From NCBI RefSeq assembly GCF_058153355.1, contig NZ_CM177019.1: DNA of 64,000 nt, one strand, 5' to 3'. This document shows, in pieces, positions 27,135 through 57,962 of this stretch (position 1 is the stretch's first letter; every line of letters starts with the position of its first letter). Both the position numbers and the translations under genes were made by a program. A model generated the notes under the pieces. It had not been told where the DNA came from and did not search any database. It saw nothing but the letters and a program-made list of their open reading frames with translations.

Positions 27135-28118
<984 letters not shown>

Positions 28119-29480: not shown

Positions 29481-29482
29481 AA

Positions 29483-30907
<1,425 letters not shown>

Positions 30908-30910
30908 GGG

Positions 30911-31807: not shown

Positions 31808-31970
31808 CGGTGGTGACCTTACTATTTACGATCAAATAATTGCAGATGGATGGAATCATATATCCCGAATTGACAGACTTAAAGGAATCATTGAGTCTAC
31901 ACTCGCAGAGTGTGAAGAGCGTCATAAGAACTTAAGCGGAATTTTTGCTGCCAGCCCAGGAGAGTGGAAG

Positions 31971-32828
31971 ATGTTGTACCTGACGAAAATACGCAATGCA
32001 GAAAGTGAATTTACCGAGAACGAGCAAAAAATAGCTGACTTTCTGCAGGCCAAAGTGAGTGAGCTGAAATCCGTCTCTTCGCGCAAGATGGCGAAACAGC
32101 TCGGCATCAGCCAGTCGAGTATTGTGAAGTTTGCCCAGAAGCTCGGCGCGCAAGGATTTACTGAATTGCGTATGGCGTTAATTGGCGAATACAGTGCCAG
32201 CCGGGAGAAAACGAATGCCACGGCGCTGCACTTGCACAGTTCGATTACCAGTGACGATTCGCTGGAAGTGATTGCCCGCAAACTGAATCGCGAAAAAGAG
32301 CTGGCACTGGAGCAAACCTGCGCCTTACTCGATTACGCGCGGCTGCAAAAAATCATTGAGGTCATCAGTAAAGCGCCGTTTATCCAGATAACAGGCCTGG
32401 GCGGGTCGGCGCTGGTGGGGCGCGATCTTTCATTCAAACTGATGAAAATTGGTTATCGCGTGGCCTGTGAAGCCGACACGCACGTACAAGCTACCGTTTC
32501 CCAGGCGTTGAAAAAAGGTGATGTACAAATCGCTATCTCTTACAGCGGCAGTAAAAAAGAGATTTTGCTATGCGCCGAGGCAGCGCGAAAGCAGGGGGCA
32601 ACGGTGATTGCCATTACTTCACTGACTGACTCTCCGCTGCGGCGGTTGGCACATTTCACCCTCGATACCGTTTCTGGTGAAACCGAATGGCGTAGCTCGT
32701 CGATGTCCACCCGCACGGCACAAAATTCGGTTACCGATTTACTGTTTGTTGGGCTGGTACAACTTAATGATGTCGAGTCATTGAAAATGATTGAGCGCAG
32801 CAGTGAGCTAACACAACGCCTGAAATGA
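31971..32828 (+). CDS. murR: RpiR-family repressor MurR (HTH + SIS domain)
   Basis: [25 protein letters not shown]...; 285 aa from internal Met of track ORF 31716..32828; divergent from murQP. Confidence 0.88.
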
Positions 32829-32956
32829 TGCATAAAGCAGCGACTGGATTGAGATTTTCCTGAATTAGTGAGCTGATCCGCAGCAATATTTTGTTTATCC
32901 TGTATTTTCAGAGGGAATGGAGTGTAACGCTCTGTATTAACAAGGAGAGCATTAAA

Positions 32957-33748
32957 ATGGGTAAACTCACGGGCAAGACAGCACTGATTACGGGCGCATT
33001 GCAGGGAATTGGCGAAGGAATTGCCAGAACTTTTGCGCGTCATGGCGCAAACCTAATCTTGTTGGATATCTCCCCTGAGATCGAAAAGCTGGCGGACGAA
33101 CTGTGTGGTCGTGGTCATCGCTGTACGGCGGTTGTCGCCGATGTGCGTGACCCGGCGTCGGTAGCCGCAGCTATCAAGCGCGCAAAGGAAAAAGAAGGGC
33201 GCATTGATATCCTGGTGAATAACGCAGGCGTTTGTCGTCTGGGCAGTTTCCTCGATATGAGCGATGAAGATCGCGATTTCCATATTGATATCAATATAAA
33301 AGGCGTATGGAACGTCACGAAGGCGGTGCTGCCGGAGATGATTGCCCGCAAAGATGGTCGCATTGTGATGATGTCTTCGGTCACTGGCGATATGGTGGCC
33401 GATCCGGGCGAAACGGCGTATGCCTTAACGAAAGCGGCGATTGTTGGCCTGACTAAATCGCTGGCGGTGGAGTACGCGCAGTCTGGTATTCGCGTTAACG
33501 CCGTCTGCCCAGGATATGTTCGCACGCCAATGGCGGAAAGCATCGCGCGTCAGTCAAACCCGGAGGATCCGGAATCGGTGCTGACTGAAATGGCGAAAGC
33601 AATCCCGCTGCGTCGCCTCGCCGATCCGCTGGAAGTTGGCGAACTGGCGGCCTTCCTCGCATCCGATGAATCCAGCTATTTAACCGGTACACAGAATGTG
33701 ATTGATGGCGGCAGCACACTGCCGGAGACGGTTAGCGTCGGCATCTGA
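32957..33748 (+). CDS. ucpA: short-chain dehydrogenase/reductase UcpA
   Basis: MGKLTGKTALITGALQGIGEGIA... Rossmann GxxxGxG motif; 263 aa from internal Met. Confidence 0.9.
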   Translation: MGKLTGKTALITGALQGIGEGIARTFARHGANLILLDISPEIEKLADELCGRGHRCTAVVADVRDPASVAAAIKRAKEKEGRIDILVNNAGVCRLGSFLDMSDEDRDFHIDINIKGVWNVTKAVLPEMIARKDGRIVMMSSVTGDMVADPGETAYALTKAAIVGLTKSLAVEYAQSGIRVNAVCPGYVRTPMAESIARQSNPEDPESVLTEMAKAIPLRRLADPLEVGELAAFLASDESSYLTGTQNVIDGGSTLPETVSVGI

Positions 33749-34051
33749 TTCACCTCTGTTTCCTCCCTGCATTTGTGGGGAGGATTTCGTCTTGAACTAA
33801 GTTCACCAGGCTATTTTATTTGTCATTTTGGCCCCGGGCAGTGCTCGAAATCCTCACGTACTATGTGTACGCTCCGGTTTCTCCGCGCTGTTCGTGTCCA
33901 AACTGACTGCAACAATTACGCCTGTTGAACCAAGTTCTTATTCCCTTTTCAACTTCCAAATCACCAAACGGTATATAAAACCGTTACTCCTTTCACGTCC
34001 GTTATAAATATGATGACTAATAGAAAGTCATTTAATTAATAAGGGTGCGCA

Positions 34052-35068
34052 ATGGCCGTTAACTTACTGAAAAAGAACTCACTCGCGCTGGTCGCTTCTC
34101 TGCTGCTGGCGGGCCATGTACAGGCAACGGAACTGCTGAACAGTTCTTATGACGTCTCCCGCGAGCTGTTTGCTGCCCTGAATCCGCCGTTTGAGCAACA
34201 ATGGGCCAAAGACAACGGCGGCGATAAACTGACGATAAAACAATCTCATGCAGGGTCATCAAAACAGGCGCTGGCGATTTTGCAGGGCTTAAAAGCAGAC
34301 GTTGTAACTTATAACCAGGTGACCGACGTACAAATCCTGCATGATAAAGGCAAACTGATCCCGGCTGACTGGCAGTCGCGCCTGCCGAATAACAGCTCGC
34401 CGTTTTACTCCACCATGGGCTTCCTGGTGCGTAAGGGCAACCCGAAGAATATCCATGACTGGAACGACCTGGTGCGCTCCGACGTGAAGCTGATCTTCCC
34501 GAACCCAAAAACCTCCGGTAACGCGCGTTATACCTATCTGGCGGCATGGGGCGCAGCGGATAAAGCTGACGGTGGCGATAAAGCCAAAACCGAACAGTTT
34601 ATGACTCAGTTCCTGAAAAACGTTGAAGTGTTCGATACCGGCGGTCGTGGCGCGACCACTACTTTTGCCGAGCGCGGGCTGGGCGATGTGCTGATTAGCT
34701 TCGAATCGGAAGTGAATAACATCCGCAAGCAGTATGAAGCGCAGGGCTTTGAAGTGGTGATTCCGAAAACCAACATACTGGCGGAATTCCCGGTGGCGTG
34801 GGTCGATAAAAACGTACAGGCCAACGGCACGGAAAAAGCGGCAAAAGCTTACCTGAACTGGCTCTACAGCCCACAGGCGCAAACGATCATTACCGACTAT
34901 TACTACCGCGTAAACAACCCGGAAGTCATGGACAAACTGAAAGACAAATTCCCGCAGACCGAGCTGTTTCGCGTGGAAGATAAATTTGGCTCCTGGCCGG
35001 AAGTGATGAAAACCCACTTCAACAGCGGCGGCGAGTTAGACAAGCTGTTAGCGGCGGGGCGTAACTAA
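34052..35068 (+). CDS. cysP: thiosulfate/sulfate ABC transporter periplasmic binding protein
   Basis: 338-aa ORF with signal peptide. Confidence 0.93.
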
Positions 35069-35901
35069 TGTTTGCAGTTTCTTCCAGACGCGTGCTGCCG
35101 GGCTTTACCTTAAGCCTCGGCACCAGTCTGTTGTTTGTGTGCCTGATTTTGCTGCTGCCGCTCTCCGCACTGGTGATGCAACTGGCTCAGATGAGCTGGG
35201 CGCAGTACTGGGAAGTGGTCACCAACCCGCAGGTGGTCGCGGCCTATAAAGTGACGCTGCTGTCGGCGTTTGTGGCATCGATTTTTAACGGCGTTTTCGG
35301 CCTGCTGATGGCGTGGATTTTAACCCGCTATCGCTTTCCGGGCCGCACGCTGCTTGATGCGCTGATGGATTTACCGTTTGCGCTACCAACGGCGGTAGCA
35401 GGTTTAACGCTGGCCTCGCTCTTTTCCGTGAACGGTTTTTACGGCGAGTGGCTGGCGAAGTTTGATATCAAAGTCACCTACACCTGGCTTGGTATCGCGG
35501 TGGCGATGGCCTTTACCAGCATTCCGTTTGTGGTGCGTACCGTGCAGCCGGTGCTGGAGGAGTTAGGCCCGGAATATGAAGAAGCCGCAGAAACGCTCGG
35601 CGCAACGCGCTGGCAGAGTTTCTGCAAAGTGGTGCTGCCGGAGCTTTCTCCGGCGCTGGTGGCGGGCGTGGCGCTGTCGTTTACCCGTAGTCTCGGTGAG
35701 TTTGGTGCGGTGATTTTTATCGCCGGGAACATCGCCTGGAAGACGGAAGTGACGTCGCTGATGATTTTTGTTCGCTTACAGGAGTTTGATTACCCGGCGG
35801 CGAGCGCAATTGCTTCGGTGATCCTCGCTGCATCCCTGCTGCTGCTGTTCTCAATTAACACTCTGCAAAGTCGCTTTGGTCGGCGTGTGGTAGGTCATTA
35901 A
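35068..35901 (+). CDS. cysU: sulfate/thiosulfate ABC transporter permease
   Basis: 277-aa ORF; operon order. Confidence 0.93.
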   Translation: MFAVSSRRVLPGFTLSLGTSLLFVCLILLLPLSALVMQLAQMSWAQYWEVVTNPQVVAAYKVTLLSAFVASIFNGVFGLLMAWILTRYRFPGRTLLDALMDLPFALPTAVAGLTLASLFSVNGFYGEWLAKFDIKVTYTWLGIAVAMAFTSIPFVVRTVQPVLEELGPEYEEAAETLGATRWQSFCKVVLPELSPALVAGVALSFTRSLGEFGAVIFIAGNIAWKTEVTSLMIFVRLQEFDYPAASAIASVILAASLLLLFSINTLQSRFGRRVVGH

Positions 35902-36776
35902 TGGCGGAAGTGACACAGTTGAAGCGTTATGACGCGCGCCCGATTAACTGGGGCAAATGGTTTCTGATTGGCACCGGAATGCTGGTTTCGGCGTTCATCC
36001 TGCTGGTGCCGATGATTTACATTTTCGTGCAGGCATTCAGCAAAGGGCTGATGCCAGTGTTACAGAATCTGGCCGATCCGGACATGCTGCATGCCATCTG
36101 GCTAACGGTGATGATTGCGCTGATTGCCGTCCCGGTAAACCTGGTGTTCGGGATTCTGCTGGCGTGGCTGGTGACGCGCTTTAACTTCCCCGGACGCCAG
36201 TTATTGCTGACGCTGCTGGATATTCCGTTTGCCGTGTCGCCGGTGGTTGCCGGTCTGGTCTATCTGCTGTTCTACGGCTCTAATGGCCCGCTCGGCGGCT
36301 GGCTGGATGAACATAATCTGCAAATTATGTTCTCCTGGCCGGGAATGGTGCTGGTCACCATCTTCGTGACCTGTCCGTTTGTGGTGCGCGAGCTGGTGCC
36401 GGTGATGTTAAGCCAGGGCAGCCAGGAAGACGAAGCGGCGATTTTGCTTGGCGCGTCTGGCTGGCAGATGTTCCGCCGCGTCACGCTGCCGAACATCCGC
36501 TGGGCGCTGCTTTACGGCGTGGTGCTGACCAACGCCCGCGCGATAGGCGAGTTTGGCGCGGTGTCGGTGGTATCCGGCTCGATTCGCGGCGAAACACTTT
36601 CGCTGCCGTTACAGATTGAATTGCTGGAGCAGGACTACAACACCGTCGGCTCCTTTACCGCCGCGGCGCTGTTGACGCTGATGGCGATTATCACCCTGTT
36701 TTTAAAGAGTATGTTGCAGTGGCGCCTGGAGAATCAGGAAAAACGCGCGCAACAGGAGGAACATCATGAGCATTGA
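35901..36776 (+). CDS. cysW: sulfate/thiosulfate ABC transporter permease
   Basis: 291-aa ORF. Confidence 0.93.
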
Positions 36777-37863
36777 GATTGCCAATATTAAGAAGTCGTT
36801 TGGTCGCACCCAGGTGCTGAACGATATCTCACTGGATATTCCTTCTGGTCAGATGGTCGCATTGCTGGGGCCGTCCGGTTCCGGGAAAACCACGCTGCTG
36901 CGGATTATCGCCGGGCTGGAGCATCAAACCAGCGGGCATATTCGTTTCCACGGCACCGACGTCAGCCGCCTGCATGCACGCGATCGTAAAGTCGGTTTCG
37001 TGTTTCAGCATTACGCGCTGTTCCGCCATATGACGGTGTTCGACAATATCGCCTTTGGCCTGACGGTGCTGCCGCGTCGCGAGCGCCCGAATGCCGCGGC
37101 GATCAAAGCGAAAGTGACAAAATTACTGGAAATGGTGCAGCTTGCCCATCTGGCGGATCGTTATCCGGCGCAGCTTTCCGGCGGTCAGAAACAGCGTGTG
37201 GCGCTGGCGCGCGCGCTGGCTGTCGAACCGCAAATTCTGCTGCTTGATGAACCGTTTGGCGCGCTGGATGCGCAGGTGCGTAAAGAGCTGCGTCGTTGGC
37301 TGCGTCAGTTGCATGAAGAGCTGAAATTCACCAGCGTGTTCGTTACCCACGACCAGGAAGAAGCGATGGAAGTCGCCAACCGCGTTGTGGTGATGAGCCA
37401 GGGCAATATCGAACAGGCTGATGAACCGGATCAGGTCTGGCGCGAACCGGCGACCCGTTTTGTGCTGGAGTTTATGGGCGAAGTGAACCGCTTGCAGGGA
37501 ACGATTCGCGGTGGGCAGTTCCACGTTGGTGCGCACCGCTGGCCGCTGGGATACACCCCTGCGTATCAGGGGCCGGTGGATCTCTTCCTGCGCCCGTGGG
37601 AAGTGGATATCAGCCGCCGCACCAGCCTCGATTCGCCGCTGCCGGTGCAGGTGCTGGAAGCCAGCCCGAAAGGTCACTACACCCAATTAGTCGTGCAGCC
37701 GCTGGGGTGGTATGAAGATCCGCTCACCGTAGTAATGCGTGGTGATGATGCGCCGGTGCGCGGCGATCGTTTGTTCGTCGGGCTGCAACATGCGCGGCTG
37801 TATAACGGCGACGAGCGTATTGAAACCCGTGATGAGGAACTTGCCCTCGCACAAAGCGCCTGA
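36766..37863 (+). CDS. cysA: sulfate/thiosulfate ABC transporter ATP-binding protein
   Basis: 365-aa ORF with Walker A (GPSGSGKTT) and ABC signature ([15 protein letters not shown]). Confidence 0.95.
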
Positions 37864-37935
37864 TAGGTTGAGTGAATGTTAAACGCCCGGAGGCGCTTCC
37901 CGCGATCCGGGCTTTTTAATGGCAAGGTTTTGTAA

Positions 37936-37975
37936 CCTGTAGGCCTGATAAGACGCGTAAACGTCGCATCAGGCA
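37936..37975. repeat. REP element (inverted orientation) downstream of cysA
   Basis: cctgtaggcctgataagacgcgtaaacgtcgcatcaggca. Confidence 0.65.
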
Positions 37976-37997
37976 ACACCACGTATGGACAGAGATC

Positions 37998-38909
37998 GTG
38001 AGTACATTAGAACAAACAATAGGCAATACGCCTCTGGTGAAATTACAACGAATGGGGCCGGATAACGGCAGTGAAGTGTGGTTAAAGCTGGAAGGCAATA
38101 ATCCGGCCGGTTCGGTGAAAGATCGTGCGGCGCTTTCGATGATCGTCGAGGCGGAAAAGCGCGGGGAAATTAAACCGGGTGATGTGTTAATTGAAGCCAC
38201 CAGTGGTAACACCGGGATTGCGCTGGCAATGATTGCCGCGCTAAAAGGCTATCGCATGAAATTGCTGATGCCCGATAACATGAGCCAGGAACGCCGTGCG
38301 GCGATGCGTGCCTACGGTGCGGAGCTGATTCTGGTCACCAAAGAGCAGGGCATGGAAGGCGCGCGCGATCTGGCGCTGGAGATGGCGAATCGCGGTGAAG
38401 GCAAGCTGCTCGATCAGTTCAATAATCCCGATAATCCTTATGCGCATTACACCACCACCGGGCCGGAAATCTGGCAGCAAACCGGCGGCCGCATTACCCA
38501 TTTTGTCTCCAGCATGGGGACGACCGGTACGATTACCGGCGTGTCGCGCTTTATGCGCGAGCAATCCAAACCGGTGACCATTGTTGGTCTGCAGCCGGAA
38601 GAGGGCAGCAGCATTCCCGGCATTCGTCGCTGGCCTGAGGAATATCTGCCAGGCATCTTCAACGCTTCGCTGGTGGATGAGGTGCTGGATATTCATCAGC
38701 GCGATGCGGAAAACACCATGCGCGAACTGGCAGTGCGGGAAGGGATTTTCTGCGGTGTAAGTTCCGGCGGCGCGGTTGCCGGAGCACTGCGGGTGGCAAA
38801 AGCCAACCCTGGTGCAGTGGTGGTAGCGATCATCTGCGATCGTGGCGATCGCTACCTTTCTACCGGGGTGTTTGGGGAAGAGCACTTTAGTCAGGGGGCG
38901 GGCATTTAA
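37998..38909 (+). CDS. cysM: cysteine synthase B (O-acetylserine sulfhydrylase B)
   Basis: 303-aa PLP-enzyme ORF. Confidence 0.93.
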   Translation: MSTLEQTIGNTPLVKLQRMGPDNGSEVWLKLEGNNPAGSVKDRAALSMIVEAEKRGEIKPGDVLIEATSGNTGIALAMIAALKGYRMKLLMPDNMSQERRAAMRAYGAELILVTKEQGMEGARDLALEMANRGEGKLLDQFNNPDNPYAHYTTTGPEIWQQTGGRITHFVSSMGTTGTITGVSRFMREQSKPVTIVGLQPEEGSSIPGIRRWPEEYLPGIFNASLVDEVLDIHQRDAENTMRELAVREGIFCGVSSGGAVAGALRVAKANPGAVVVAIICDRGDRYLSTGVFGEEHFSQGAGI

Positions 38910-38948
38910 GGATTAATAGCATTGGAGGCTGATGACAAACGCAAAACT

Positions 38949-39047
38949 GCCTGATGCGCTACGCTTATCAGGCCTACAAGGTTCCTGTAATATATTGAAT
39001 TAGCAATATTTTGTAGGCCGAATAAGGCGTTTACGCTGCATCTGGCA
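38949..39047. repeat. BIME: two inverted REP elements between cysM and yfeS
   Basis: gcctgatgcgctacgcttatcaggcctaca ... tgtaggccgaataaggcgtttacgctgcatctggca. Confidence 0.65.
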
Positions 39048-39113
39048 TAAACAAAGTGCACTTTGTCAATAATCTGCTTTGTCGGCAGTTGTTGCTGCCG
39101 ACAAATGCAGTTT

Positions 39114-39848
39114 TTAATTTTCGTGTGGAAACGTAGTAAGGTCATCAATCATTTTTTGAAGTATTGGTGAGTCCTGACCATCACCCCATTGAAGAATTTT
39201 TGCGGTAAGCTGATGACGGGCTAGTGCATTGAGTCCCATCTTTTTAAGTTTATGGGAGATTTTACCCATGACTTTAATCTGACCGAATGCAGTTGCGTAG
39301 GTAATCATATTGCTCTGGATAGTGCTCATTTCATCGGCTAGTAATTGCGCACGAATATCCTCTTCAAGAATACTTTCCATAGCGATATATTTCATACCCC
39401 AGATAGTTTCAATTAACATTTGAGGGAAATCAGCACAATCTAGATCCGGCTCTTTACGCAGGCTATTTTCAAGAACGTTTAGAGCATCAGCACCTTCATC
39501 GCTGCCAAAAGGAGATTCTTCATCCCAGCAACACACATAAAGTGGATCAGTAAAATGGCACTGGAAGTTTGGGTGTGACGTTTTAACATGTAACCCAATT
39601 TCTTCATCATCAAAATAGTAGCGATCCATGTAGTTAAAGTTTGGATCTTCTTGATAGCCTTTCTTCATTTTTGCGGCAATCAATTTACTGGCTTCTTTCA
39701 GACACTGTTCTTCATTATCGAACTCTTTTGTCTGGAATTTACCAATACTACCTACCTTGCCATAGTTGATAGCTAAACTATCCCCTTCGTAATCTATCCA
39801 CCAAAATTTATTCGATTTTTCATCGTTATAAATAAAGCATTTTTTCAT
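39114..39848 (-). CDS. yfeS: WGR-domain protein YfeS
   Basis: 244-aa ORF MKKCFIYNDEKSNKFWWIDYEGDSLAINYGKVG... (WGR-like N-terminus); synteny. Confidence 0.8.
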   Translation of the reverse strand: MKKCFIYNDEKSNKFWWIDYEGDSLAINYGKVGSIGKFQTKEFDNEEQCLKEASKLIAAKMKKGYQEDPNFNYMDRYYFDDEEIGLHVKTSHPNFQCHFTDPLYVCCWDEESPFGSDEGADALNVLENSLRKEPDLDCADFPQMLIETIWGMKYIAMESILEEDIRAQLLADEMSTIQSNMITYATAFGQIKVMGKISHKLKKMGLNALARHQLTAKILQWGDGQDSPILQKMIDDLTTFPHEN

Positions 39849-39880
39849 GTTACCTCCTGTAAATGCCTTGCCAAAGCGGA

Positions 39881-40255
39881 TTAATTCCCTTCCGCAGGCA
39901 CCGTTTTATCCGTCTGCGCAATTAACGCATGTAAAAAAGGTTGCGCGTTTTCATCGCTCTTACCGGGCATCTTCACGATATACGGCTTCCCGGTAATCGA
40001 TGATGACGAAGCAACCTTATCAATAAATTGCTCAGCAGTATCAATGCGATTACGGGTATTGCCCAGCTTCAGACGCAAATGGGAAACCGCTTCATCGCAG
40101 GTATGTTCATCGCCGTTGCGCACAAATATCAAATCCTTTTTCTGTGCTAATCCCTCCAGCATGGCGTTGATGCGGGCTTCTTCGTGGGCGGTTAACTTCG
40201 CGTAAGCGGGGAGTGTCATTAGCAGCGTTATTAAAAGACAAATGATTTTCTTCAT
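39881..40255 (-). CDS. yfeK: periplasmic/lipoprotein-like protein YfeK
   Basis: 124-aa ORF with signal peptide; synteny. Confidence 0.8.
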
Positions 40256-40280
40256 TGAATTACCTTATCCTTGTTTTGTG

Positions 40281-40346
<66 letters not shown>

Positions 40347-40358
40347 GAGAAAAATTAA

Positions 40359-41210
40359 ATGAGTAGTTTGTTGTTGTTTAACGATAAGAGCAGAGCGTTG
40401 CAGGCGGATATTGTCGCGGTGCAGTCGCAGGTAGTGTACGGCAGCGTAGGCAACAGCATTGCCGTGCCTGCTATTAAACAGAACGGCCTGAATGTCTTTG
40501 CCGTGCCGACGGTATTGCTGAGCAATACGCCGCATTATGACACTTTCTACGGCGGTGCGATTCCGGACGAATGGTTTAGCGGCTATTTGCGTGCGCTTCA
40601 GGAGCGTGATGCGCTGCGCCAGCTGCGCGCTGTCACCACGGGCTATATGGGAACGGCATCGCAAATCAAAATCCTTGCCGAGTGGCTGACTTCGCTACGC
40701 AAAGACCATCCTGACTTATTGATTATGGTCGATCCGGTGATTGGCGATATTGATAGCGGAATTTATGTCAAACCTGACCTTCCTGAGGCATACCGACAAT
40801 ATTTACTGCCTCTGGCGCAGGGTATTACGCCTAATATCTTTGAGCTGGAAATCCTGACAGGTAAAAATTGCCGCGATCTCGACAGCGCCATTGCTGCCGC
40901 AAAAAGTCTGCTTTCAGACACATTAAAGTGGGTGGTGATTACCAGTGCCTCCGGTAATGAAGAAAATCAGGAGATGCAGGTGGTGGTGGTCACCGCCGAC
41001 AGCGTGAATGTCATTTCCCATTCACGGGTTAAAACTGACCTGAAAGGTACTGGCGACCTGTTTTGTGCTCAGCTTATCAGTGGCTTGTTGAAAGGTAAGG
41101 AATTAACTGACGCGGTACATAGCGCGGGATTACGCGTGCTGGAGGTGATGCGCTATACCCAGCAGTATGGTAGCGATGAATTGATTTTGCCGCCGCTGAC
41201 GGAAGCATAA
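40359..41210 (+). CDS. pdxK: pyridoxal/pyridoxine/pyridoxamine kinase
   Basis: 283-aa ribokinase-family ORF. Confidence 0.92.
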
Positions 41211-41218
41211 AAAAATGG

Positions 41219-41230
41219 CGCCCATCGGCG
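41219..41230. repeat. IS4 target-site duplication, left copy (cgcccatcggcg)
   Basis: 12-bp direct repeat identical to 42657-42668, immediately flanking the IS4 ends. Confidence 0.85.
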
Positions 41231-42656
41231 TAATGCCAGTCAGTTAAGCAACTGACTGGCTCTTTTTCGGGGCTGTGGGGTATTTCCAGGGCCTCTCCTT
41301 TACCACTCTCGGGAAGGCCCTTTCCCTTCTTGTCGGTAATTTCACAAGTTGTCCCATACTTGCAAGATCGCGCATCAGCTCCGGTATACGTCCCGGTGAA
41401 GCGCCCTGCAATGTCATCAGCATTCTCATCACCATTCCGCATGATTCTGAGAAACTCAGTTGATTCGGCCAGTAACCTTTCAGATGTTCCGCCATTTTAA
41501 TCATCTGATATCTCACCAGATTATAAGCCAGTAAGACACCCCACAGCTCTTGCTCCACAAGCTCCGGCTTTTTACTTCTCAGCGTCAGCCTGCTCAGTTG
41601 CATCGTCTGTTTTATCTCCCTGTATCCCAGTTCGATTTCCCAGCGATGACTGTACAGATCCGCCATTTCTCCTCCGGGGAAGCGCATGGCGTCCGTCATC
41701 GACGTCAGCAGATGGCAGACTTTTCCTTTGCGCGTCACGGTCAGCAGGCGGGCTGTCACTTCATTTCCCAGTCCCGGCCACTTTTTTCGTGCCTGCGGGC
41801 TGGTTTTCAGCTTCACCAGATGATCGCCTTTACCCAGTTTTCTGATCTCTTCATATTGCGCTCCCTTTCTGAGAGGTATCATCCAGTGGCGGTGTTCTCC
41901 CGCCAGGCTCCAGGCATTTAACAGTCCCAGTGAGTAATAACCTTTATCCATTAACGTCAGAGTGTTATCGCCGGTTTGTTCTATAAGTTGCTCAGCAAGC
42001 TCATTTTCGCTGTTCTTCATCGTGCCGAAGGCTGCAGCCGTCAGCAGATGGCTGGTCAGTTCCATCTGGCAGACCATTTTGACCTGCGGGTAGAGCGCCG
42101 GGTTCCCGGCATGTGTCTGGCGGGGGAAGGCTGCATCGTTCTCTGGTGTATCCGGTGTGCGCCAGAACACACCATCGATGGCCAGCAGGGTCAGGCCGCA
42201 CCAGTGCGGATGCGGCGTGGCGTTATGCCAGAGCTGCGCTGTTTTCGTGAACACGCGGCGGACAGCCTCACTTCCCAGGCGCTGGCGGGCCTGAATAACG
42301 GCACTGGGGGCAACGAAGGGGCGATTGCCCGGCAGCATGATGTCCAGGCGATTCACAATCTGGTGAAGAGGTTCTTTACGCTCAAGCGCCATGCCAACAA
42401 TACACCAGACCATCATTTCGAGGGGAAGACGGCGCTTGCGTAGCGTTACAGTACCTGATTCGGCAAGGCAACGAGAGATGAGTTCGGGGTCGAGGTAATC
42501 CCCCAGAGAAGTCAGTGGGTTACGCAGAGAATCGTAACGGGATACCAGATCAAGAGCCTGTCCAATGTGCATAAAAAAATCCGGAAACAAGTGAGCGTTT
42601 CCGGATTCTTACACAGCCACTGGATCGGTCAACTGATCCTTAACTGATCGGCATTA
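41231..42656 (-). mobile_element. IS4 insertion sequence, complete (1426 bp)
   Basis: Imperfect terminal inverted repeats (left taatgccagtcagttaag..., right end reverse complement taatgccgatcagttaag...); one long transposase ORF; 12-bp target duplication; length matches IS4. Confidence 0.9.
41244..42590 (-). CDS. IS4-family transposase (DDE)
   Basis: 448-aa [29 protein letters not shown]...; recognised as IS4-type transposase. Confidence 0.9.
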
Positions 42657-42668
42657 CGCCCATCGGCG
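42657..42668. repeat. IS4 target-site duplication, right copy (cgcccatcggcg)
   Basis: Identical to 41219-41230. Confidence 0.85.
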
Positions 42669-42690
42669 CCATTTTTCACTGCGGCAAGAA

Positions 42691-48860: not shown

Positions 48861-50885
<2,025 letters not shown>

Positions 50886-50886
50886 G

Positions 50887-51105
50887 ATGGAAAAAGAGCA
50901 GCTGATTGAAATAGCCAATACGATAATGCCGTTTGGCAAATACAAAGGGCGTCGCTTAATCGACCTGCCGGAGGAGTATCTGCTGTGGTTTGCCCGCAAA
51001 GATGAGTTCCCGGCAGGGAAGCTCGGTGAGCTAATGCAAATCACGCTGCTGATTAAAACCGAGGGGCTGACGCAACTAGTCCAGCCCCTGAAACGCCCAC
51101 TTTAA
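50887..51105 (+). CDS. ypeB: DUF3820-type small protein YpeB
   Basis: MEKEQLIEIANTIMPFGKYKGRRLIDLPEEYLLWFARKDEF...; 72 aa, directly after ligA. Confidence 0.8.
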   Translation: MEKEQLIEIANTIMPFGKYKGRRLIDLPEEYLLWFARKDEFPAGKLGELMQITLLIKTEGLTQLVQPLKRPL

Positions 51106-52100
51106 GCTTTATCGGCGCTGCTTTCCTGCTGCGCCTGTAACTGTTCGGTCTGGCGTTTGTATCGACGCGCCAGCACCGCACAGACCATCAATTGGATCTG
51201 ATGGAAAATCATCAGAGGCAGCACCATCATACCGATCACCGATGTGGGGAACAGAATGTTTGCCATCGGGATGCCATTTGCCAGACTCTTTTTCGAACCA
51301 CAAAAGACGATAGTAATTTCATCTGCCTTATTGAAGCCCAGTCGGCGTGCCATAAAGACGTTAACTACAATCACGATAGCCAGAAGAACGCAGCTGACCA
51401 CCACGATAAACAGCAATGATCCCCAGCCAACTTTATGCCAGATGCCGTTAACGACGGCTTCGCTGAATGCCGTATAAACCACCAACAGAATGGACGTCTG
51501 GTCAGTTTTCGCAATCCATTTTTTATTACGCGACACCCAGTCACCAATCCACGGCCGGGAAAGATGCCCCAACACAAATGGCAGCAACAGTTGCAGCATA
51601 ATTTTACCGACCTGCTCAAGGCTGCCCCCTGCACCGTGAACATTCATCACCAGGCCAACCAGCAACGGTGAAAGGAAAATCCCCAGTAGGCTGGATGCCG
51701 ACGCAGAACAAACCGCCGCCGCGACGTTACCGCCCGCCATTGACGTGAAGGCAATTGCAGACTGCACGGTAGCAGGAAGAATGCACAAGTAGAGAAAACC
51801 GGAATAGAGCATCGGGGCGACATTTACCGGTTTCCACCAGGCAAACAGCACGCTCAAAATTGGGAACAGCACGAAGGTGCTACACATCACCCATAAATGC
51901 AGTCGCCAGTGACCACCGCCAGCAATAATCGCCTCACGCGACAACTTCGCGCCGTGCATAAAGAACAGCAGAGCAATCGCTGCAGTGGTCAGATTTTCAA
52001 AGAAGGGGACGAAATCGCCTCTGGCCGGAAAGAAAGAGGCCAGCAACACCACCGTGATCAGGGTTAAGGTGAAAGGATCGAGGATACGAAAAAGTTTCAT
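51102..52100 (-). CDS. yfeH: bile acid/sodium symporter family membrane protein YfeH
   Basis: 332-aa polytopic membrane ORF; synteny. Confidence 0.85.
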   Translation of the reverse strand: MKLFRILDPFTLTLITVVLLASFFPARGDFVPFFENLTTAAIALLFFMHGAKLSREAIIAGGGHWRLHLWVMCSTFVLFPILSVLFAWWKPVNVAPMLYSGFLYLCILPATVQSAIAFTSMAGGNVAAAVCSASASSLLGIFLSPLLVGLVMNVHGAGGSLEQVGKIMLQLLLPFVLGHLSRPWIGDWVSRNKKWIAKTDQTSILLVVYTAFSEAVVNGIWHKVGWGSLLFIVVVSCVLLAIVIVVNVFMARRLGFNKADEITIVFCGSKKSLANGIPMANILFPTSVIGMMVLPLMIFHQIQLMVCAVLARRYKRQTEQLQAQQESSADKA

Positions 52101-52189
52101 ATAGACTCCAGATGATCGATGGTTCTATTGTGCTTCTTCCAGTTTGAGAAATAAAATTGATTTATTGCATCCATTCATGAAGAAAACAG

Positions 52190-53116
52190 ATGAATTATTC
52201 TTTAAAGCAATTAAAGGTTTTCGTCACAGTAGCGCAGGAGAAAAGTTTTAGTCGTGCAGGAGAGCGTATCGGCCTGAGCCAGTCGGCAGTGAGTCACAGT
52301 GTGAAGGAGCTGGAAAATCATACTGGTGTTCGCCTGCTGGACAGAACCACGCGTGAAGTGGTGCTTACAGATGCAGGGCAGCAGTTGGCTTTGCGTCTTG
52401 AGCGACTGCTGGATGAACTTAACAGCACGTTGCGCGATACCGGGCGTATGGGGCAACAACTGAGCGGAAAAGTTCGGGTCGCTGCCAGCCAGACCATTTC
52501 CGCGCATCTTATTCCGCAATGCATTGCTGAAAGCCATCGCCGCTATCCCGATATTCAGTTTGTCCTGCACGATCGTCCGCAGCAGTGGGTGATGGAAAGT
52601 ATTCGCCAGGGAGATGTCGATTTTGGCATCGTCATCGATCCAGGCCCAGTGGGCGATCTGCAATGTGAAGCGATTCTTTCCGAGCCTTTCTTTCTGCTTT
52701 GCCATCGCGATAGCGCTTTGGCCGTGGAAGATTATGTACCCTGGCAGGCATTACAGGGAGCGAAACTGGTGTTGCAGGATTACGCGTCAGGCAGCCGACC
52801 GCTGATTGACGCAGCGCTGGCGCGCAATGGTATTCAGGCGAATATTGTGCAGGAGATTGGTCATCCGGCGACGCTGTTCCCGATGGTAGCCGCAGGCATC
52901 GGCATCAGTATTCTTCCCGCACTGGCGCTACCATTGCCTGAAGGTAGCCCACTGGTGGTAAAGCGCATTACGCCGGTGGTTGAACGCCAGTTGATGCTGG
53001 TGCGCAGGAAGAACCGTTCACTTTCCACCGCCGCTGAAGCGTTATGGGACGTAGTACGAGACCAGGGCAATGCGCTAATGGCTGGGCGGGAAGGGGATCC
53101 GTTGTATCAGATATAG
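52190..53116 (+). CDS. yfeR: LysR-family transcriptional regulator YfeR
   Basis: 308-aa ORF with N-terminal LysR HTH ([38 protein letters not shown]). Confidence 0.88.
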
Positions 53117-53154
53117 AGTGAATTCATACTGCCGGGAGCTCCGGCAGTAATCAA

Positions 53155-53919
53155 TCAGAAATTAAATTTGATGGAGTAGATTATCGCATCCTGGTAAAAA
53201 TCTTCGCCCAGTTTGTCATCCGCATAACGATACTGAATCCCTGTGGTGATGTGTGAAGTTGCATTCCACCAAAGTGCGACGGCACCGTTCAGACCTTCTT
53301 TGCCGCCATTACCTGCCGCGTAGGTGGCATCACGATCAAACTCGTACTCGTTCCAGTTGGTGAGGGTGAATTTCTCACTGCCCAGCATAAAGCTGTAACC
53401 TGCAACCCAACCGGCGACATAACCGTTATCGCCGGTATAATAGGTTTGGTCTGTATAGCGTTTTGCAAAGAACGGTTTGAACCACCAACCGCTGCCGGTG
53501 AAATTGTAGCCGATCCCGTAAAGGAACATATCGTCATGGAAATTCACACGATTCGCAGAACCGTAGGTGCCATACGCATGCAAGTAGAGATTAAATCCGG
53601 TGTCACCCAGGTAAATACGGTTGGTATTTTTAAATGTATAACGCTGCTCGCTACCCTGTTTATCATGACGATCATTATAAAAGTTTTCCCAGTCGAAGAA
53701 CCCGTACATTTCTCCCCAACTAAAGTTAGCGCCGCCTTCCAGTTCCAGATATCCAAAATCATCTTTGTGTGATTTGGTCGACGATTTCTCAGTGGTTCTG
53801 CTAGTCCAGTCAAGATAATGAATACCTATATCAGCAAAACCGCCTTTAAATTCTGCATGGGATACTGCTGGTATCGCCAATACAGAAGAGAGTGTCAGAG
53901 TAAAAAGATGTTTTTTCAT
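53155..53919 (-). CDS. yfeN: outer-membrane beta-barrel protein YfeN
   Basis: 254-aa ORF with signal peptide, aromatic-rich, C-terminal F. Confidence 0.85.
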   Translation of the reverse strand: MKKHLFTLTLSSVLAIPAVSHAEFKGGFADIGIHYLDWTSRTTEKSSTKSHKDDFGYLELEGGANFSWGEMYGFFDWENFYNDRHDKQGSEQRYTFKNTNRIYLGDTGFNLYLHAYGTYGSANRVNFHDDMFLYGIGYNFTGSGWWFKPFFAKRYTDQTYYTGDNGYVAGWVAGYSFMLGSEKFTLTNWNEYEFDRDATYAAGNGGKEGLNGAVALWWNATSHITTGIQYRYADDKLGEDFYQDAIIYSIKFNF

Positions 53920-54167
53920 AGCATAATTCCCTATGCCGATCGTTATTAGTTGATTGCTTAATAAAAAGGTTGATTAAAAGCGGCATATTGTTAATGCAAG
54001 GGAAAGGAGAGTACCAATACAGTTTTTTCAGCCTATTAATAGTGAAAAAATATAAATATATCGATATCGAATAACTATCGGATACATGAAAAAAGTGTAT
54101 TGGTATGAGGTAGGGCAATCTCGTTATAAAAAGGCGTTAGATTCCACCCTACAAAAAAAGGATATAT

Positions 54168-55001
54168 ATGTATCAGGCTCAGTTTTCTCATAACCCACTG
54201 TATTGCGTAGATATTATCAAGACTTATAAACCTGATTTCACGCCACGAGTGGCCTTTATTTTAGGTTCCGGGCTGGGCGCGCTGGCCGATCAGATTGAGA
54301 ACGCGGTCGCAATTTCCTACGAAAAGCTGCCTGGGTTCCCGGTAAGTACCGTACACGGTCATGCGGGTGAGCTGGTGCTGGGTTATCTCCAGGGGGTGCC
54401 AGTGGCGTGCATGAAAGGTCGCGGACATTTCTACGAAGGTCGTGGGATGACCATCATGACGGATGCAATCCGTACCTTTAAGTTGCTGGGCTGCGAGTTG
54501 CTGTTCTGCACCAATGCGGCTGGCTCACTGCGTCCTGAAGTGGGGGCCGGCAGTCTGGTCGCATTGAAAGATCACATCAACACCATGCCGGGAACGCCGA
54601 TGGTGGGTCTTAATGATGAACGTTTTGGTGAGCGCTTCTTCTCGCTGGCGAATGCCTACGATGCGGAATACCGCGCACTGTTACAAAAAGTGGCGAAAGA
54701 AGAGGGGTTCCCTCTGACGGAGGGCGTGTTCGTCTCGTATCCGGGGCCGAATTTCGAGACTGCGGCGGAAATTCGCATGATGCAAATTATTGGTGGGGAT
54801 GTTGTTGGTATGTCTGTGGTGCCTGAGGTTATTTCAGCTCGCCATTGCGAACTTAAAGTCGTTGCGGTCTCTGCGATTACCAACATGGCGTAAGGTCTGA
54901 GTGACGTGAAGCTTTCTCATGCCCAAACGCTGGCAGCAGCGGAACTCTCAAAGCAAAACTTTATTAATCTTATTTGCGGCTTTCTGCGCAAAATTGCCTG
55001 A
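54168..55001 (+). pseudogene. xapA: xanthosine phosphorylase (PNP-II) interrupted by an in-frame TAA at 54891-54893
   Basis: Track ORF stops after 241 codons (...AITNMA*); the same frame continues after the stop as GLSDVKLSHAQTLAAAELSKQNFINLICGFLRKIA* to a second stop at 54999-55001; combined length 277 codons equals full-length XapA. Confidence 0.75.
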
Positions 55002-55061
55002 GTAAAACAACAATAAACGGCCTCACTGAGTGAGGCCATATGATGCGACAAGGAAACGATT

Positions 55062-56318
55062 ATGAGCATCGCTTTGCGCTTAAAGGTAATGTCCTTTTTG
55101 CAATATTTTATCTGGGGGAGCTGGCTGGTTACCCTCGGTTCTTACATGATTAATACCCTTCATTTCACCGGCGCTAATGTTGGCATGGTTTACAGTTCCA
55201 AAGGGATCGCCGCGATTATTATGCCTGGTATAATGGGGATCATCGCAGACAAATGGCTGCGTGCAGAACGTGCATACATGCTGTGTCACCTGGTGTGTGC
55301 AGGCGTACTTTTTTATGCGGCATCCGTAACTGATCCGGATATGATGTTTTGGGTGATGTTAGTTAATGCGATGGCGTTTATGCCGACTATTGCGTTATCG
55401 AACAGCGTCTCTTATTCCTGTCTTGCCCAGGCAGGGCTTGACCCGGTGACCGCTTTCCCGCCCATTCGCGTTTTTGGTACGGTGGGGTTCATTGTCGCCA
55501 TGTGGGCAGTAAGCCTGCTGCATCTGGAATTGAGTAGTCTGCAACTGTATATCGCGTCCGGTGCGTCATTGCTGCTGTCGGCTTATGCGCTGACTTTGCC
55601 GAAGATTCCGGTTGCGGAGAAAAAAGCGACTACATCGCTTGCCAGCAAGCTGGGTCTGGATGCCTTCGTGCTGTTTAAAAATCCACGCATGGCTATCTTT
55701 TTCCTCTTCGCCATGATGCTGGGTGCGGTGCTGCAAATTACCAACGTTTTTGGCAACCCGTTCCTGCATGATTTCGCCCGTAATCCTGAGTTTGCTGATA
55801 GCTTCGTGGTGAAATATCCGTCCATTTTACTGTCAGTTTCACAGATGGCTGAAGTCGGTTTCATTCTGACGATACCGTTCTTTTTGAAGCGTTTCGGTAT
55901 TAAAACCGTCATGCTGATGAGTATGTTGGCGTGGACGCTGCGCTTTGGCTTCTTTGCCTATGGCGATCCATCACCAACCGGGTTTATTTTGCTGTTGCTG
56001 TCGATGATTGTTTACGGTTGTGCATTCGATTTCTTCAATATTTCTGGTTCGGTCTTTGTCGAACAGGAAGTTGATTCCAGCATTCGTGCCAGCGCCCAGG
56101 GCCTTTTTATGACGATGGTAAATGGCGTCGGCGCATGGGTTGGCTCGATTCTGAGCGGTATGGCAGTGGATTACTTCTCGGTGGATGGCGTAAAAGATTG
56201 GCATACCATTTGGCTGATGTTTGCAGGGTATGCTCTTTTCCTCGCAGTGATATTTTTCTTTGGGTTTAAATATAACCATGACCCTGAAAAGATAACGCAT
56301 CGTTCAGTTACACATTAA
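55062..56318 (+). CDS. xapB: xanthosine permease (MFS nucleoside:H+ symporter)
   Basis: 418-aa polytopic ORF; follows xapA. Confidence 0.92.
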   Translation: MSIALRLKVMSFLQYFIWGSWLVTLGSYMINTLHFTGANVGMVYSSKGIAAIIMPGIMGIIADKWLRAERAYMLCHLVCAGVLFYAASVTDPDMMFWVMLVNAMAFMPTIALSNSVSYSCLAQAGLDPVTAFPPIRVFGTVGFIVAMWAVSLLHLELSSLQLYIASGASLLLSAYALTLPKIPVAEKKATTSLASKLGLDAFVLFKNPRMAIFFLFAMMLGAVLQITNVFGNPFLHDFARNPEFADSFVVKYPSILLSVSQMAEVGFILTIPFFLKRFGIKTVMLMSMLAWTLRFGFFAYGDPSPTGFILLLLSMIVYGCAFDFFNISGSVFVEQEVDSSIRASAQGLFMTMVNGVGAWVGSILSGMAVDYFSVDGVKDWHTIWLMFAGYALFLAVIFFFGFKYNHDPEKITHRSVTH

Positions 56319-56370
56319 AAGGATTCGCAGCTCTGTTCCTTGGGGCTGCTTTTATGATAAAGGTTAATTA

Positions 56371-56529
56371 GTGAAAGATATTTTATTTTCTTCTGGCGTT
56401 GGTTTTGGCATTGGTGCTTTGTTTACAATCGTGCGATTACCTATTCCTGTTCCAAATGTATTGCCGGGTATATTATCCATCGTGTTTATGTATGTCGGAT
56501 ATCTGGTGGTGAAATACTTTATGCCATGA
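56371..56529 (+). CDS. possible small hydrophobic protein (52 codons, GTG start), not in the ORF track
   Basis: Own translation VKDILFSSGVGFGIGALFTIVRLPIPVPNVLPGILSIVFMYVGYLVVKYFMP*; single TM-like segment with small-xxx-small motifs; weak AAGG upstream. Confidence 0.3.
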   Translation: MKDILFSSGVGFGIGALFTIVRLPIPVPNVLPGILSIVFMYVGYLVVKYFMP

Positions 56530-56569
56530 TAATTTAATACGATGTATTTTTTATATGGAGCACTTAATT

Positions 56570-57454
56570 ATGGAGCGCGCATATAGAACAGATCTTAAGT
56601 TGCTCCGTTATTTTCTTGCCGTAGCGGAAGAGTTGCATTTTGGTCGCGCAGCAGCGCGTTTAAATATGTCTCAGCCTCCGCTCAGTATTCATATTAAAGA
56701 GCTGGAAAATCAACTCGGCACGCAGCTTTTTATTCGCCATTCGCGCAGCGTCGTACTGACACACGCGGGCAAAATCTTGATGGAAGAATCGCGTCGATTG
56801 CTGGTGAATGCAAATAATATATTGGCTCGGGTTGAACAAATAGGTCGGGGAGAAGCAGGGCGGATTGAACTCGGGGTTGTGGGAACGGCAATGTGGGGAC
56901 GGATGCGCCCGGTTATGCGGCGATTCCTTAGAGAAAATCCTAACGTTGAAGTTCTGTTTCGCGAAAAGATGCCCGCGATGCAAATGGCCTTGCTGGAACG
57001 CCGCGAACTTGATGCCGGGATCTGGCGAATGGCGACAGAACCACCGACTGGTTTTACCAGCTTACGGTTGCATGAATCGGCGTTTCTGGTGGCGATGCCT
57101 GAAGAGCATCATCTCTCATCATTTTCCACCGTCCCGCTGGAAGCGCTACGTGACGAGTATTTCGTTACAATGCCGCCCGTGTACACTGACTGGGATTTTT
57201 TGCAGCGAGTTTGCCAGCAGGTGGGATTTTCACCGGTTGTTATTCGCGAAGTTAATGAACCGCAAACGGTACTCGCCATGGTCAGTATGGGTATTGGTAT
57301 CACATTGATAGCGGACAGCTACGCGCAGATGAACTGGCCCGGTGTCATATTCCGTCCGCTCAAAGAACGCATCCCGGCAGACTTATATATTGTTTATGAA
57401 ACGCAGCAGGTGACGCCCGCGCTGGTTAAACTGCTGGCGGCGTTGGCGCAGTAG
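56570..57454 (+). CDS. xapR: LysR-family activator of xapAB
   Basis: MERAYRTDLKLLRYFLAVAEELHFGRAAARLNMSQPPLS...; 294 aa from internal Met. Confidence 0.9.
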   Translation: MERAYRTDLKLLRYFLAVAEELHFGRAAARLNMSQPPLSIHIKELENQLGTQLFIRHSRSVVLTHAGKILMEESRRLLVNANNILARVEQIGRGEAGRIELGVVGTAMWGRMRPVMRRFLRENPNVEVLFREKMPAMQMALLERRELDAGIWRMATEPPTGFTSLRLHESAFLVAMPEEHHLSSFSTVPLEALRDEYFVTMPPVYTDWDFLQRVCQQVGFSPVVIREVNEPQTVLAMVSMGIGITLIADSYAQMNWPGVIFRPLKERIPADLYIVYETQQVTPALVKLLAALAQ

Positions 57455-57534
57455 ATGAGAGGCACGGGAACTGCCGGACATAGTTGGTCTGATAAGCGAA
57501 GCGCATCAGGCAATTTCGCAAATTGCAGATAGCA

Positions 57535-57560
57535 AAAAAGCGCCTTTAGGGCGCTTTTTT
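57535..57560 (-). terminator. rho-independent terminator after the tRNA operon (bidirectional hairpin)
   Basis: aaaaaagcgcc-ttta-gggcgctttttt. Confidence 0.7.
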
Positions 57561-57564
57561 ACAT

Positions 57565-57640
57565 TGGTGGGTCGTGCAGGATTCGAACCTGCGACCAATT
57601 GATTAAAAGTCAACTGCTCTACCAACTGAGCTAACGACCC
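57565..57640 (-). tRNA. lysV: tRNA-Lys (anticodon UUU)
   Basis: Reverse complement is GGGTCGTTAGCTCAGTTGGTAGAGCAGTTGACTTTTAATCAATTGGTCGCAGGTTCGAATCCTGCACGACCCACCA; 76 nt with encoded CCA. Confidence 0.95.
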
Positions 57641-57644
57641 GAAG

Positions 57645-57720
57645 TGGTGGGTGATGACGGGATCGAACCGCCGACCCCCTCCTTGTAAGGGAGGTGCTCT
57701 CCCAGCTGAGCTAATCACCC
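57645..57720 (-). tRNA. valY: tRNA-Val (anticodon UAC)
   Basis: Reverse complement is GGGTGATTAGCTCAGCTGGGAGAGCACCTCCCTTACAAGGAGGGGGTCGGCGGTTCGATCCCGTCATCACCCACCA; gene symbol from remembered operon order. Confidence 0.93.
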
Positions 57721-57766
57721 ACTTCGGTACTTCACATTGTTACAAGAAATCTAGCTGGCGAGAAAG

Positions 57767-57842
57767 TGGTGGGTGATGACGGGATCGAACCGCCGACCCC
57801 CTCCTTGTAAGGGAGGTGCTCTCCCAGCTGAGCTAATCACCC
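57767..57842 (-). tRNA. valX: tRNA-Val (anticodon UAC)
   Basis: Identical 76-nt copy. Confidence 0.93.
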
Positions 57843-57886
57843 ACTTCTCAATTTCTTGCTACACGGCGGAGACTACATAAAGTAGT

Positions 57887-57962
57887 TGGTGGGTGATGAC
57901 GGGATCGAACCGCCGACCCCCTCCTTGTAAGGGAGGTGCTCTCCCAGCTGAGCTAATCACCC
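57887..57962 (-). tRNA. valU: tRNA-Val (anticodon UAC)
   Basis: Identical 76-nt copy; first gene of the operon. Confidence 0.93.

What the first reader, a model, noticed from the sequence alone, without database searches (positions are those of the whole stretch)
54168..55001. xapA carries a premature in-frame TAA; the downstream frame still encodes the C-terminal 35 residues
The xapA ORF stops at 54891-54893 after 241 codons, but the same frame continues uninterrupted for 35 codons to a second stop at 54999-55001, giving 277 codons in total, the length of full-length xanthosine phosphorylase. This pattern indicates a recent single nonsense change (most simply GAA to TAA) or a sequencing error. 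It would remove the C-terminal ~36 residues and probably inactivates xanthosine catabolism, while xapB and xapR look intact.
Basis: partly seen in the sequence, partly recalled or inferred. Interest (0 to 1): 0.55.

Follow-up and report, generated by a model that had tools for sequence, protein, structure and literature searches.

The report
Nonsense-mutated xapA pseudogene in E. coli
One G-to-T change turns codon 242 of the E. coli xanthosine phosphorylase gene xapA into a stop, cutting off part of the active site and the last helix; this is an ordinary, recent, lineage-specific gene loss in a dispensable nucleoside pathway.

Summary
xapA (54168-55001, + strand) has an in-frame TAA at 54891-54893 after 241 codons. 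The same frame stays open for 35 more codons to the native TGA at 54999-55001.

The closest intact allele (E. coli 2013C-4282) differs from the window's xapA by exactly one base: G to T at 54891, GAA (Glu242) to TAA. Every full-length relative continues ...NMAEGLSDVKLSH...RKIA.

A sequencing error is unlikely. An independent NCBI draft assembly (GCA_015332025.1, protein EGO8352657.1) of the same lineage carries the same TAA. About 60 other genes in the window are intact, with no frameshifts.

The allele is rare. None of the 1,436 complete E. coli genomes that the 61-nt probe could score carries it, and a JGI metagenome scan found none.

The truncation removes the last 33 of 248 positions of the XapA family profile. 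That covers most of the gate loop, His251 (the equivalent of human PNP His257) and the whole C-terminal helix. Loss of function is likely but inferred.

The xapA promoter region is identical to an intact strain, and xapB and xapR are full-length. Loss of this pathway recurs in E. coli: the locus is missing from about 25% of complete genomes, another lineage has a Cys13 stop, and E2348/69 has a frameshifted xapR. The finding is ordinary and of low interest.

The parts
54168..54893 (+). Truncated xapA reading frame: 241 codons plus the premature TAA. It encodes XapA residues 1-241 and keeps Asn239.
   Evidence: It scores 469 bits on TIGR01699 (XAPA; cut-off 370.9) but covers only profile positions 1-215 of 248.
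54891..54893 (+). Premature ochre stop TAA. A G to T transversion at 54891 converts GAA (Glu242) to TAA. The next base is G (TAAG context).
   Evidence: It is the only difference from intact xapA of E. coli 2013C-4282. The same T is present in GCA_015332025.1 (L003).
54894..55001 (+). Remnant of xapA: 35 in-frame codons (residues 243-277) plus the native TGA stop. It would encode the rest of the gate loop, His251 and the C-terminal helix. It is no longer translated as part of XapA.
   Evidence: identical to the intact allele; alignment to human PNP; Pfam PF01048 spans residues 27-274.
53920..54167 (.). yfeN-xapA intergenic region, presumed to hold the xapA promoter and XapR control region. It has no base differences from the intact strain L001.
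   Evidence: the only intergenic differences from L001 across 51168-57582 are at 52102 and 52187. That this stretch holds the control sites is background knowledge, not tested here.
55062..56318 (+). xapB, the xanthosine/proton symporter. It is intact at 418 aa, with one substitution (V289L) relative to L001.
56570..57454 (+). xapR, the LysR-type activator. It is intact at 294 aa, with one substitution (V4A) relative to L001.
   Evidence: annotation in relatives.
57565..57640 (-). tRNA-Lys with the wild-type anticodon UUU. It is not an ochre suppressor, so there is no local rescue of the TAA.
   Evidence: ARAGORN; Rfam.

Best explanation
A genuine, recent, lineage-specific nonsense mutation has turned xapA into a pseudogene. 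It is a G to T change at 54891, GAA (Glu242) to TAA. Translation stops after Ala241. The product keeps the phosphate-, ribose- and base-binding core, including Asn239. It lacks most of the gate loop, His251 (the counterpart of human PNP active-site His257) and the entire C-terminal helix, which is the last ~33 residues of the conserved PNP_UDP_1 domain. Such a fragment is expected to be misfolded or catalytically dead. The strain should therefore be unable to phosphorolyse xanthosine, and should lose PNP-II activity and growth on xanthosine. The inducer-sensing regulator XapR and the transporter XapB are still encoded. Shown here: the mutation, its uniqueness, its presence in a second assembly, and which residues are lost. 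Inferred: loss of enzyme activity and the phenotype.
For: There is a single-base difference from the nearest intact allele. All full-length homologues read through this codon with Glu: the E. coli K-12 XapA structure 1yqq and Yersinia 3odg, and E. coli cluster members. The same TAA is in the NCBI draft GCA_015332025.1 contig AAXEGZ010000025.1, protein EGO8352657.1. That contig has 1 SNP across 49168-57725 relative to the window, and it ends at the IS4 copy that the window spans, so it is a separate assembly of the same lineage. About 60 genes across the window align full-length to reference proteins with 0 gaps and 0 stops; xapA is the only exception. Of the 51 differences from L001 over 6.4 kb, 43 are synonymous, which is the pattern of real divergence rather than error. 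Lost elements: TIGR01699 profile positions 216-248; Pfam PF01048 extends to residue 274; XapA His251 aligns with human His257 and Asn239 with Asn243. In human PNP, His257 and Asn243 are binding-site residues, residues 240-256 form the gate loop and 257-284 form an alpha-helix (PMC4308819). Loss of this pathway is common: the xap locus is absent from about 1,325 of 5,426 complete genomes, an independent Cys13 TGA allele is on ~170 contigs, and xapR is frameshifted in E2348/69.
Against: No read-level data were available. No assay shows that the 241-aa fragment is inactive or unstable. The second assembly could come from the same isolate, which would still be an independent sequencing run but would not demonstrate inheritance. 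Suppressor tRNAs elsewhere in the genome cannot be excluded from a 64-kb window.
Confidence: 0.87

Rival explanations
1. It is a sequencing or assembly error: the true base at 54891 is G and xapA is intact.
For: It is a single-base substitution. No complete E. coli genome that the probe could score carries it, and it was not found in JGI metagenomes. No reads were available to check.
Against: The same T is in a separately assembled NCBI genome whose contig breaks at the IS4 copy that the window spans. The rest of the window shows no frameshifts or stops in about 60 genes. Substitution errors that create a stop are rare in modern consensus assemblies.
Confidence: 0.05
2. The gene still yields functional enzyme. 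This could happen through ochre suppression or readthrough of the TAA. It could also happen through reinitiation at the in-frame GTG (54906, preceded by AAGG at 54892-54895), giving a 31-aa C-terminal peptide that complements the 241-aa fragment. A third route is residual activity of the truncated protein.
For: The downstream 35 codons are still perfectly intact. An in-frame GTG ORF lies at 54906-55001. Asn239 and the N-terminal core are retained.
Against: The neighbouring tRNA-Lys has a wild-type UUU anticodon. TAA followed by G is an efficient terminator in E. coli (background knowledge, not tested). The intact downstream frame is explained just as well by the mutation being recent. Any split product would still lack residues 242-246. 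The lost segment contains a conserved active-site His and an integral helix of the fold.
Confidence: 0.05
3. The stop is a programmed recoding site, such as selenocysteine, pyrrolysine or regulated readthrough.
For: None beyond the open downstream frame.
Against: The codon is TAA, not TGA or TAG. All homologues have an ordinary Glu codon here. The allele is confined to one rare lineage.
Confidence: 0.01

Closest known systems
E. coli xanthosine phosphorylase XapA / PNP-II (PDB 1yqq, 1yqu, 1yr3; NCBIfam TIGR01699; RefSeq WP_000283878.1)
   Same: With codon 242 read as Glu, the sequence is identical to WP_000283878.1 and aligns end to end with the K-12 enzyme. The xapA-xapB-xapR context next to yfeN and the valU-lysV tRNA cluster is the same.
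   Different: The encoded product stops at residue 241. It lacks residues 242-277: the gate loop, His251 and the C-terminal helix.
Truncated XapA entry EGO8352657.1 (E. coli GCA_015332025.1)
   Same: It has the identical 241-aa product and the identical TAA, and the flanking DNA is nearly identical.
   Different: It comes from a draft contig of 58.8 kb. It differs by 1 SNP across 49168-57725, 2 more further downstream, and the tRNA-Val repeat count. NCBI names it simply 'xanthosine phosphorylase', without marking it as truncated.
Other natural inactivations of the xap pathway in E. coli: xapA Cys13 TGA allele (P0003 lineage), xapR frameshift in E2348/69, deletion of the locus
   Same: The same dispensable pathway is lost by simple mutation.
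   Different: These are different lesions in different lineages. The Cys13 stop sits on the K-12-type allele and is widespread (~170 contigs). The E242 stop sits on the B2-type allele and is rare.
Human/calf trimeric purine nucleoside phosphorylase (PDB 1ula, 1pf7 and others)
   Same: It shares 44% identity, the same fold family, and conserved Asn243/His257 equivalents.
   Different: It is used here only as a structural yardstick for what the truncation removes.

Membership tests
XapA / xanthosine phosphorylase (NCBIfam TIGR01699 equivalog) | Whole-protein score above the curated cut-off (370.9 bits) | tested here: met
   The truncated ORF scores 469.2 bits and the restored 277-aa protein scores 534 bits.
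XapA / xanthosine phosphorylase (NCBIfam TIGR01699 equivalog) | Full-length coverage of the family profile and the PNP_UDP_1 domain | tested here: not met
   The encoded product covers profile positions 1-215 of 248. Pfam PF01048 in the restored protein spans residues 27-274.
XapA / xanthosine phosphorylase (NCBIfam TIGR01699 equivalog) | Active-site residues equivalent to human PNP Asn243 and His257 | tested here: not met
   Asn239 is retained, but His251 lies beyond the stop. The residue roles are from PMC4308819.
XapA / xanthosine phosphorylase (NCBIfam TIGR01699 equivalog) | Operon context xapA-xapB with the regulator xapR | tested here: met
   xapB lies at 55062-56318 and xapR at 56570-57454. 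Both are intact and collinear with annotated relatives.
XapA / xanthosine phosphorylase (NCBIfam TIGR01699 equivalog) | Xanthosine phosphorolysis activity | not testable with these tools
   This needs an enzyme assay or a growth test.
Pseudogene by nonsense mutation | In-frame stop at a position that is a sense codon in functional orthologues | tested here: met
   The codon is GAA (Glu) in L001 and L002 and in all full-length cluster members and PDB homologues compared.
Pseudogene by nonsense mutation | Homology continues in the same frame beyond the stop | tested here: met
   The 35 downstream codons are identical to the intact allele.
Pseudogene by nonsense mutation | The lesion is real, not an assembly artefact | tested here: inconclusive
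   It is supported by a second assembly with the same T and by a clean window. No reads were inspected.
Programmed stop-codon recoding (Sec, Pyl, readthrough) | A TGA or TAG codon conserved as a stop among homologues | tested here: not met
   The codon is TAA. Homologues have Glu at this position.

The most novel reading that the evidence does not exclude
The E242 stop may not be a null allele. Termination followed by reinitiation at the in-frame GTG (54906) could produce a 31-residue peptide carrying His251 and the C-terminal helix. That peptide might reassemble with the 241-residue core into a naturally split, partly active PNP-II. Alternatively, loss of XapA with XapB and XapR retained could be selected, for example xanthosine uptake without cleavage, or an altered nicotinamide riboside/NAD salvage balance (that role of XapA is from PMC3923242).
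Probability: 0.03. Interest if true: 0.35.

Novelty: already known. Interest (0 to 1): 0.08.

Why it matters
It matters little beyond annotation and strain phenotype. The gene should be flagged as a pseudogene or truncated gene, not as 'xanthosine phosphorylase', which is what the NCBI entry EGO8352657.1 calls it. Metabolic models of this lineage should drop xanthosine phosphorolysis and the minor XapA-dependent nicotinamide-to-NAD route described in PMC3923242. The SNP could serve as a lineage marker. It also adds one more example of repeated, independent erosion of the horizontally acquired xapABR module in E. coli (PMC2395238 describes its patchy, transfer-driven distribution).

Tried and rejected
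(1) The exact 241-aa product appeared on 14 public contigs, which at first looked like wide support for the allele. Inspection showed that the nine short Logan/ENA contigs shown simply end at or within codon 242. Where bases follow, they read G or GA, which is wild type. Only the NCBI contig L003 has TAA. Two further 10-20 kb contigs with the same neighbours were not displayed and could not be checked.

(2) A scan of JGI metagenome contigs for a 39-nt pattern spanning the TAA found nothing.

(3) A 61-nt probe against complete E. coli genomes gave no match of 99% identity or better among the 1,436 genomes it scored. K-12-type alleles (~93% identical) lack a 28-nt seed in that probe, so they were not tested for a stop at this codon.

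(4) A local ochre suppressor was considered, because lysV lies 2.7 kb away. Its anticodon is wild-type UUU.

(5) Rho-dependent polarity on xapB was considered. The newly untranslated stretch is only 168 nt, with no marked excess of C over G (38 C, 38 G). No strong polarity is predicted, but this was not tested further.

(6) Literature searches for 'xapA pseudogene' and for XapA structure papers returned nothing specific to this allele.

(7) I did not run structure prediction. A crystal structure of a near-identical protein exists, and the alignment to human PNP was enough to define what is lost.

(8) I could not name the strain or lineage. The best complete-genome matches to the flanks are only 98.0-98.6% identical.

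Full report
**Observation**

The + strand ORF at 54168-54893 encodes 241 residues ending ...SAITNMA and stops at TAA 54891-54893. Translating 54168-55001 in one frame gives 241 codons, the stop, then 35 open codons (GLSDVKLSHAQTLAAAELSKQNFINLICGFLRKIA) and TGA at 54999-55001.

**What the gene is**

With codon 242 read as Glu, the 277-aa protein aligns residue 1-277 to 1-277 of crystallised E. coli K-12 xanthosine phosphorylase (PDB 1yqq/1yqu/1yr3, E=7.6e-182). It also aligns with Yersinia XapA (3odg), which likewise reads N-[ML]-A-E-G-L-S-D through this point. It scores 534 bits on the NCBIfam equivalog TIGR01699 (cut-off 370.9), and the truncated form scores 469 bits. The neighbours are yfeN upstream, then xapB, a 52-aa DUF1427 ORF and xapR, followed by the lysV-valU tRNA cluster and gltX. 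This matches annotated E. coli genomes.

**The lesion**

- The 834-nt stretch matches 4,070 of 5,426 complete E. coli genomes over at least 80% of its length, and none at 100%.
- The best hit, strain 2013C-4282, differs at one base only: G to T at 54891, GAA (Glu242) to TAA. E2348/69 differs at that base plus one synonymous site.
- A 61-nt probe centred on the site found no complete genome at 99% identity or better among the 1,436 it could score.
- A 39-nt exact pattern found nothing in JGI metagenomes.
- The allele is therefore rare and derived. xapA carries no other change, and the 35 downstream codons are untouched, so the mutation is recent.

**Real mutation or error**

- The exact 241-aa product is on record as EGO8352657.1, 'xanthosine phosphorylase [Escherichia coli]'.
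- Most contigs returned for it are short Logan/ENA contigs that merely end inside codon 242. Where bases follow they read G or GA, which is wild type, so they are not support.
- The NCBI draft GCA_015332025.1 (contig AAXEGZ010000025.1, locus L003) does have TAAGGTCTG....
- L003 differs from the window by one SNP across 49168-57725, plus a tRNA-Val repeat-number difference.
- By coordinate arithmetic, its 58.8-kb contig ends at the IS4 copy that the 64-kb window spans. It is therefore a separate assembly of the same lineage.
- I aligned about 60 reference proteins from two annotated relatives onto the window. All aligned full-length with zero gaps and zero stops, except xapA.
- Of the 51 substitutions relative to strain 2013C-4282 over 6.4 kb, 43 are synonymous and there are no indels.
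- The window is clean sequence, and this is not a decaying, Shigella-like genome. I put a sequencing artefact at about 5%.

**What is lost**

- Pfam PNP_UDP_1 covers residues 27-274 of the restored protein.
- The truncated product covers TIGR01699 positions 1-215 of 248.
- BLASTP against human PNP aligns XapA Asn239 with human Asn243 and XapA His251 with human His257. I verified that the human sequence I used is identical to PDB 1pf7/1ula.
- In human PNP, Asn243 and His257 are binding-site residues, residues 240-256 form the 'gate' loop and residues 257-284 form an alpha-helix (PMC4308819).
- The E242 stop therefore keeps Asn239 but deletes most of the gate loop, the active-site His and the entire C-terminal helix.
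- Loss of activity or stability follows from this by inference. It was not measured.

**Rescue routes considered**

- The nearby tRNA-Lys (57565-57640) has the wild-type UUU anticodon, so it is not an ochre suppressor. Other tRNAs lie outside the window.
- From background knowledge, TAA followed by G is an efficient terminator.
- An in-frame GTG at 54906, preceded by AAGG, opens a 31-codon ORF. Reinitiation is conceivable, but the product would still lack residues 242-246 and would have to complement the core in trans. I give functional rescue of any kind about 5%.
- TAA excludes selenocysteine or pyrrolysine recoding.

**Rest of the pathway**

- The yfeN-xapA intergenic region (53920-54167) is identical to that of the intact strain.
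- xapB (418 aa; V289L) and xapR (294 aa; V4A) are full-length.
- The newly untranslated stretch before xapB is 168 nt with no C-over-G bias, so strong polarity is not expected.
- Expected phenotype (inferred): xanthosine is still taken up and sensed but not cleaved. PNP-II activity and growth on xanthosine are lost, and the minor XapA-dependent nicotinamide salvage route described in PMC3923242 is lost too.

**Context**

The xap module is dispensable and patchy.

- It is absent from about 1,325 of 5,426 complete E. coli genomes.
- It has been described as repeatedly horizontally transferred (PMC2395238).
- Another lineage has an independent nonsense allele, Cys13 TGC to TGA, on the K-12-type allele. 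That allele is on ~170 contigs.
- EPEC E2348/69 has a frameshifted xapR.
- Strain 361 has an IS1 in the locus.

A nonsense mutation in xapA is therefore an unsurprising event.

**Verdict**

This is an ordinary, recent, lineage-specific nonsense pseudogene of a well-characterised enzyme, and the allele is already in a public database. Interest is low. The practical consequences are correct annotation and a predicted xanthosine-negative phenotype.

Noticed in passing
window 1-1176: The window opens inside a copy of IS621 (IS110 family, the bridge-RNA recombinase element), 98-99% identical to annotated copies. It abuts the transketolase gene where relatives carry ypfG and nudK. The element is cut by the window edge.
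   Followed up: partly
window 41231-42656 (target duplications 41219-41230 and 42657-42668): A complete 1,426-bp IS4 lies between pdxK and crr, with a 12-bp target duplication CGCCCATCGGCG. It is inserted in a palindromic, terminator-like sequence (38-nt inverted arms at 41211-41248 and 42639-42676). Strain AREA_492 has IS4 at the same site in the opposite orientation. That implies either a hotspot hit twice or an inversion.
   Followed up: partly
window 42639-64000, and 24822-42676: Relatedness is mosaic. The yfeR-xap-tRNA segment (about 52-58 kb) has only 1-8 differences per kb from B2-type strains, while the flanks have 14-50 per kb. The 24.8-42.7 kb segment is 93-97% identical to the same strain and closest (98.6%) to a set of Kenyan stool isolates. 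No complete E. coli genome is a close match to the whole window.
   Followed up: partly
L015 and L016, positions about 1498-1500 (codon 13 of xapA): There is an independent xapA nonsense allele in another E. coli lineage: Cys13 TGC to TGA on the K-12-type allele. Gene callers restart it at codon 14, giving a 264-aa product. It is present on about 170 public contigs.
   Followed up: yes
L002 5403-6301 (E. coli E2348/69): xapR is annotated as frameshifted in EPEC E2348/69, while its xapA and xapB are intact. This is another route to losing the same pathway.
   Followed up: no
window 57645-57962: The window has three tandem tRNA-Val(UAC) genes plus tRNA-Lys(UUU). Strain 2013C-4282 shows two Val genes in the fetched stretch plus an annotated RtT sRNA, and the draft L003 appears to have one repeat fewer. 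The copy number of this tRNA array varies or collapses between assemblies.
   Followed up: no
window 55017-55039: A 10-bp GC-rich hairpin lies between the xapA stop and the xapB start. It scores as terminator-like only on the minus strand. It is also present in intact strains, so it is unrelated to the mutation.
   Followed up: no
window 28182-29480, 31971-32825, 39117-39848: pbp4b, murR and yfeS are present and intact in the window. They are absent or reduced in the B2-type comparison strain AREA_492, which has a pbp4b remnant and no murR or yfeS. This is ordinary gene-content variation.
   Followed up: no
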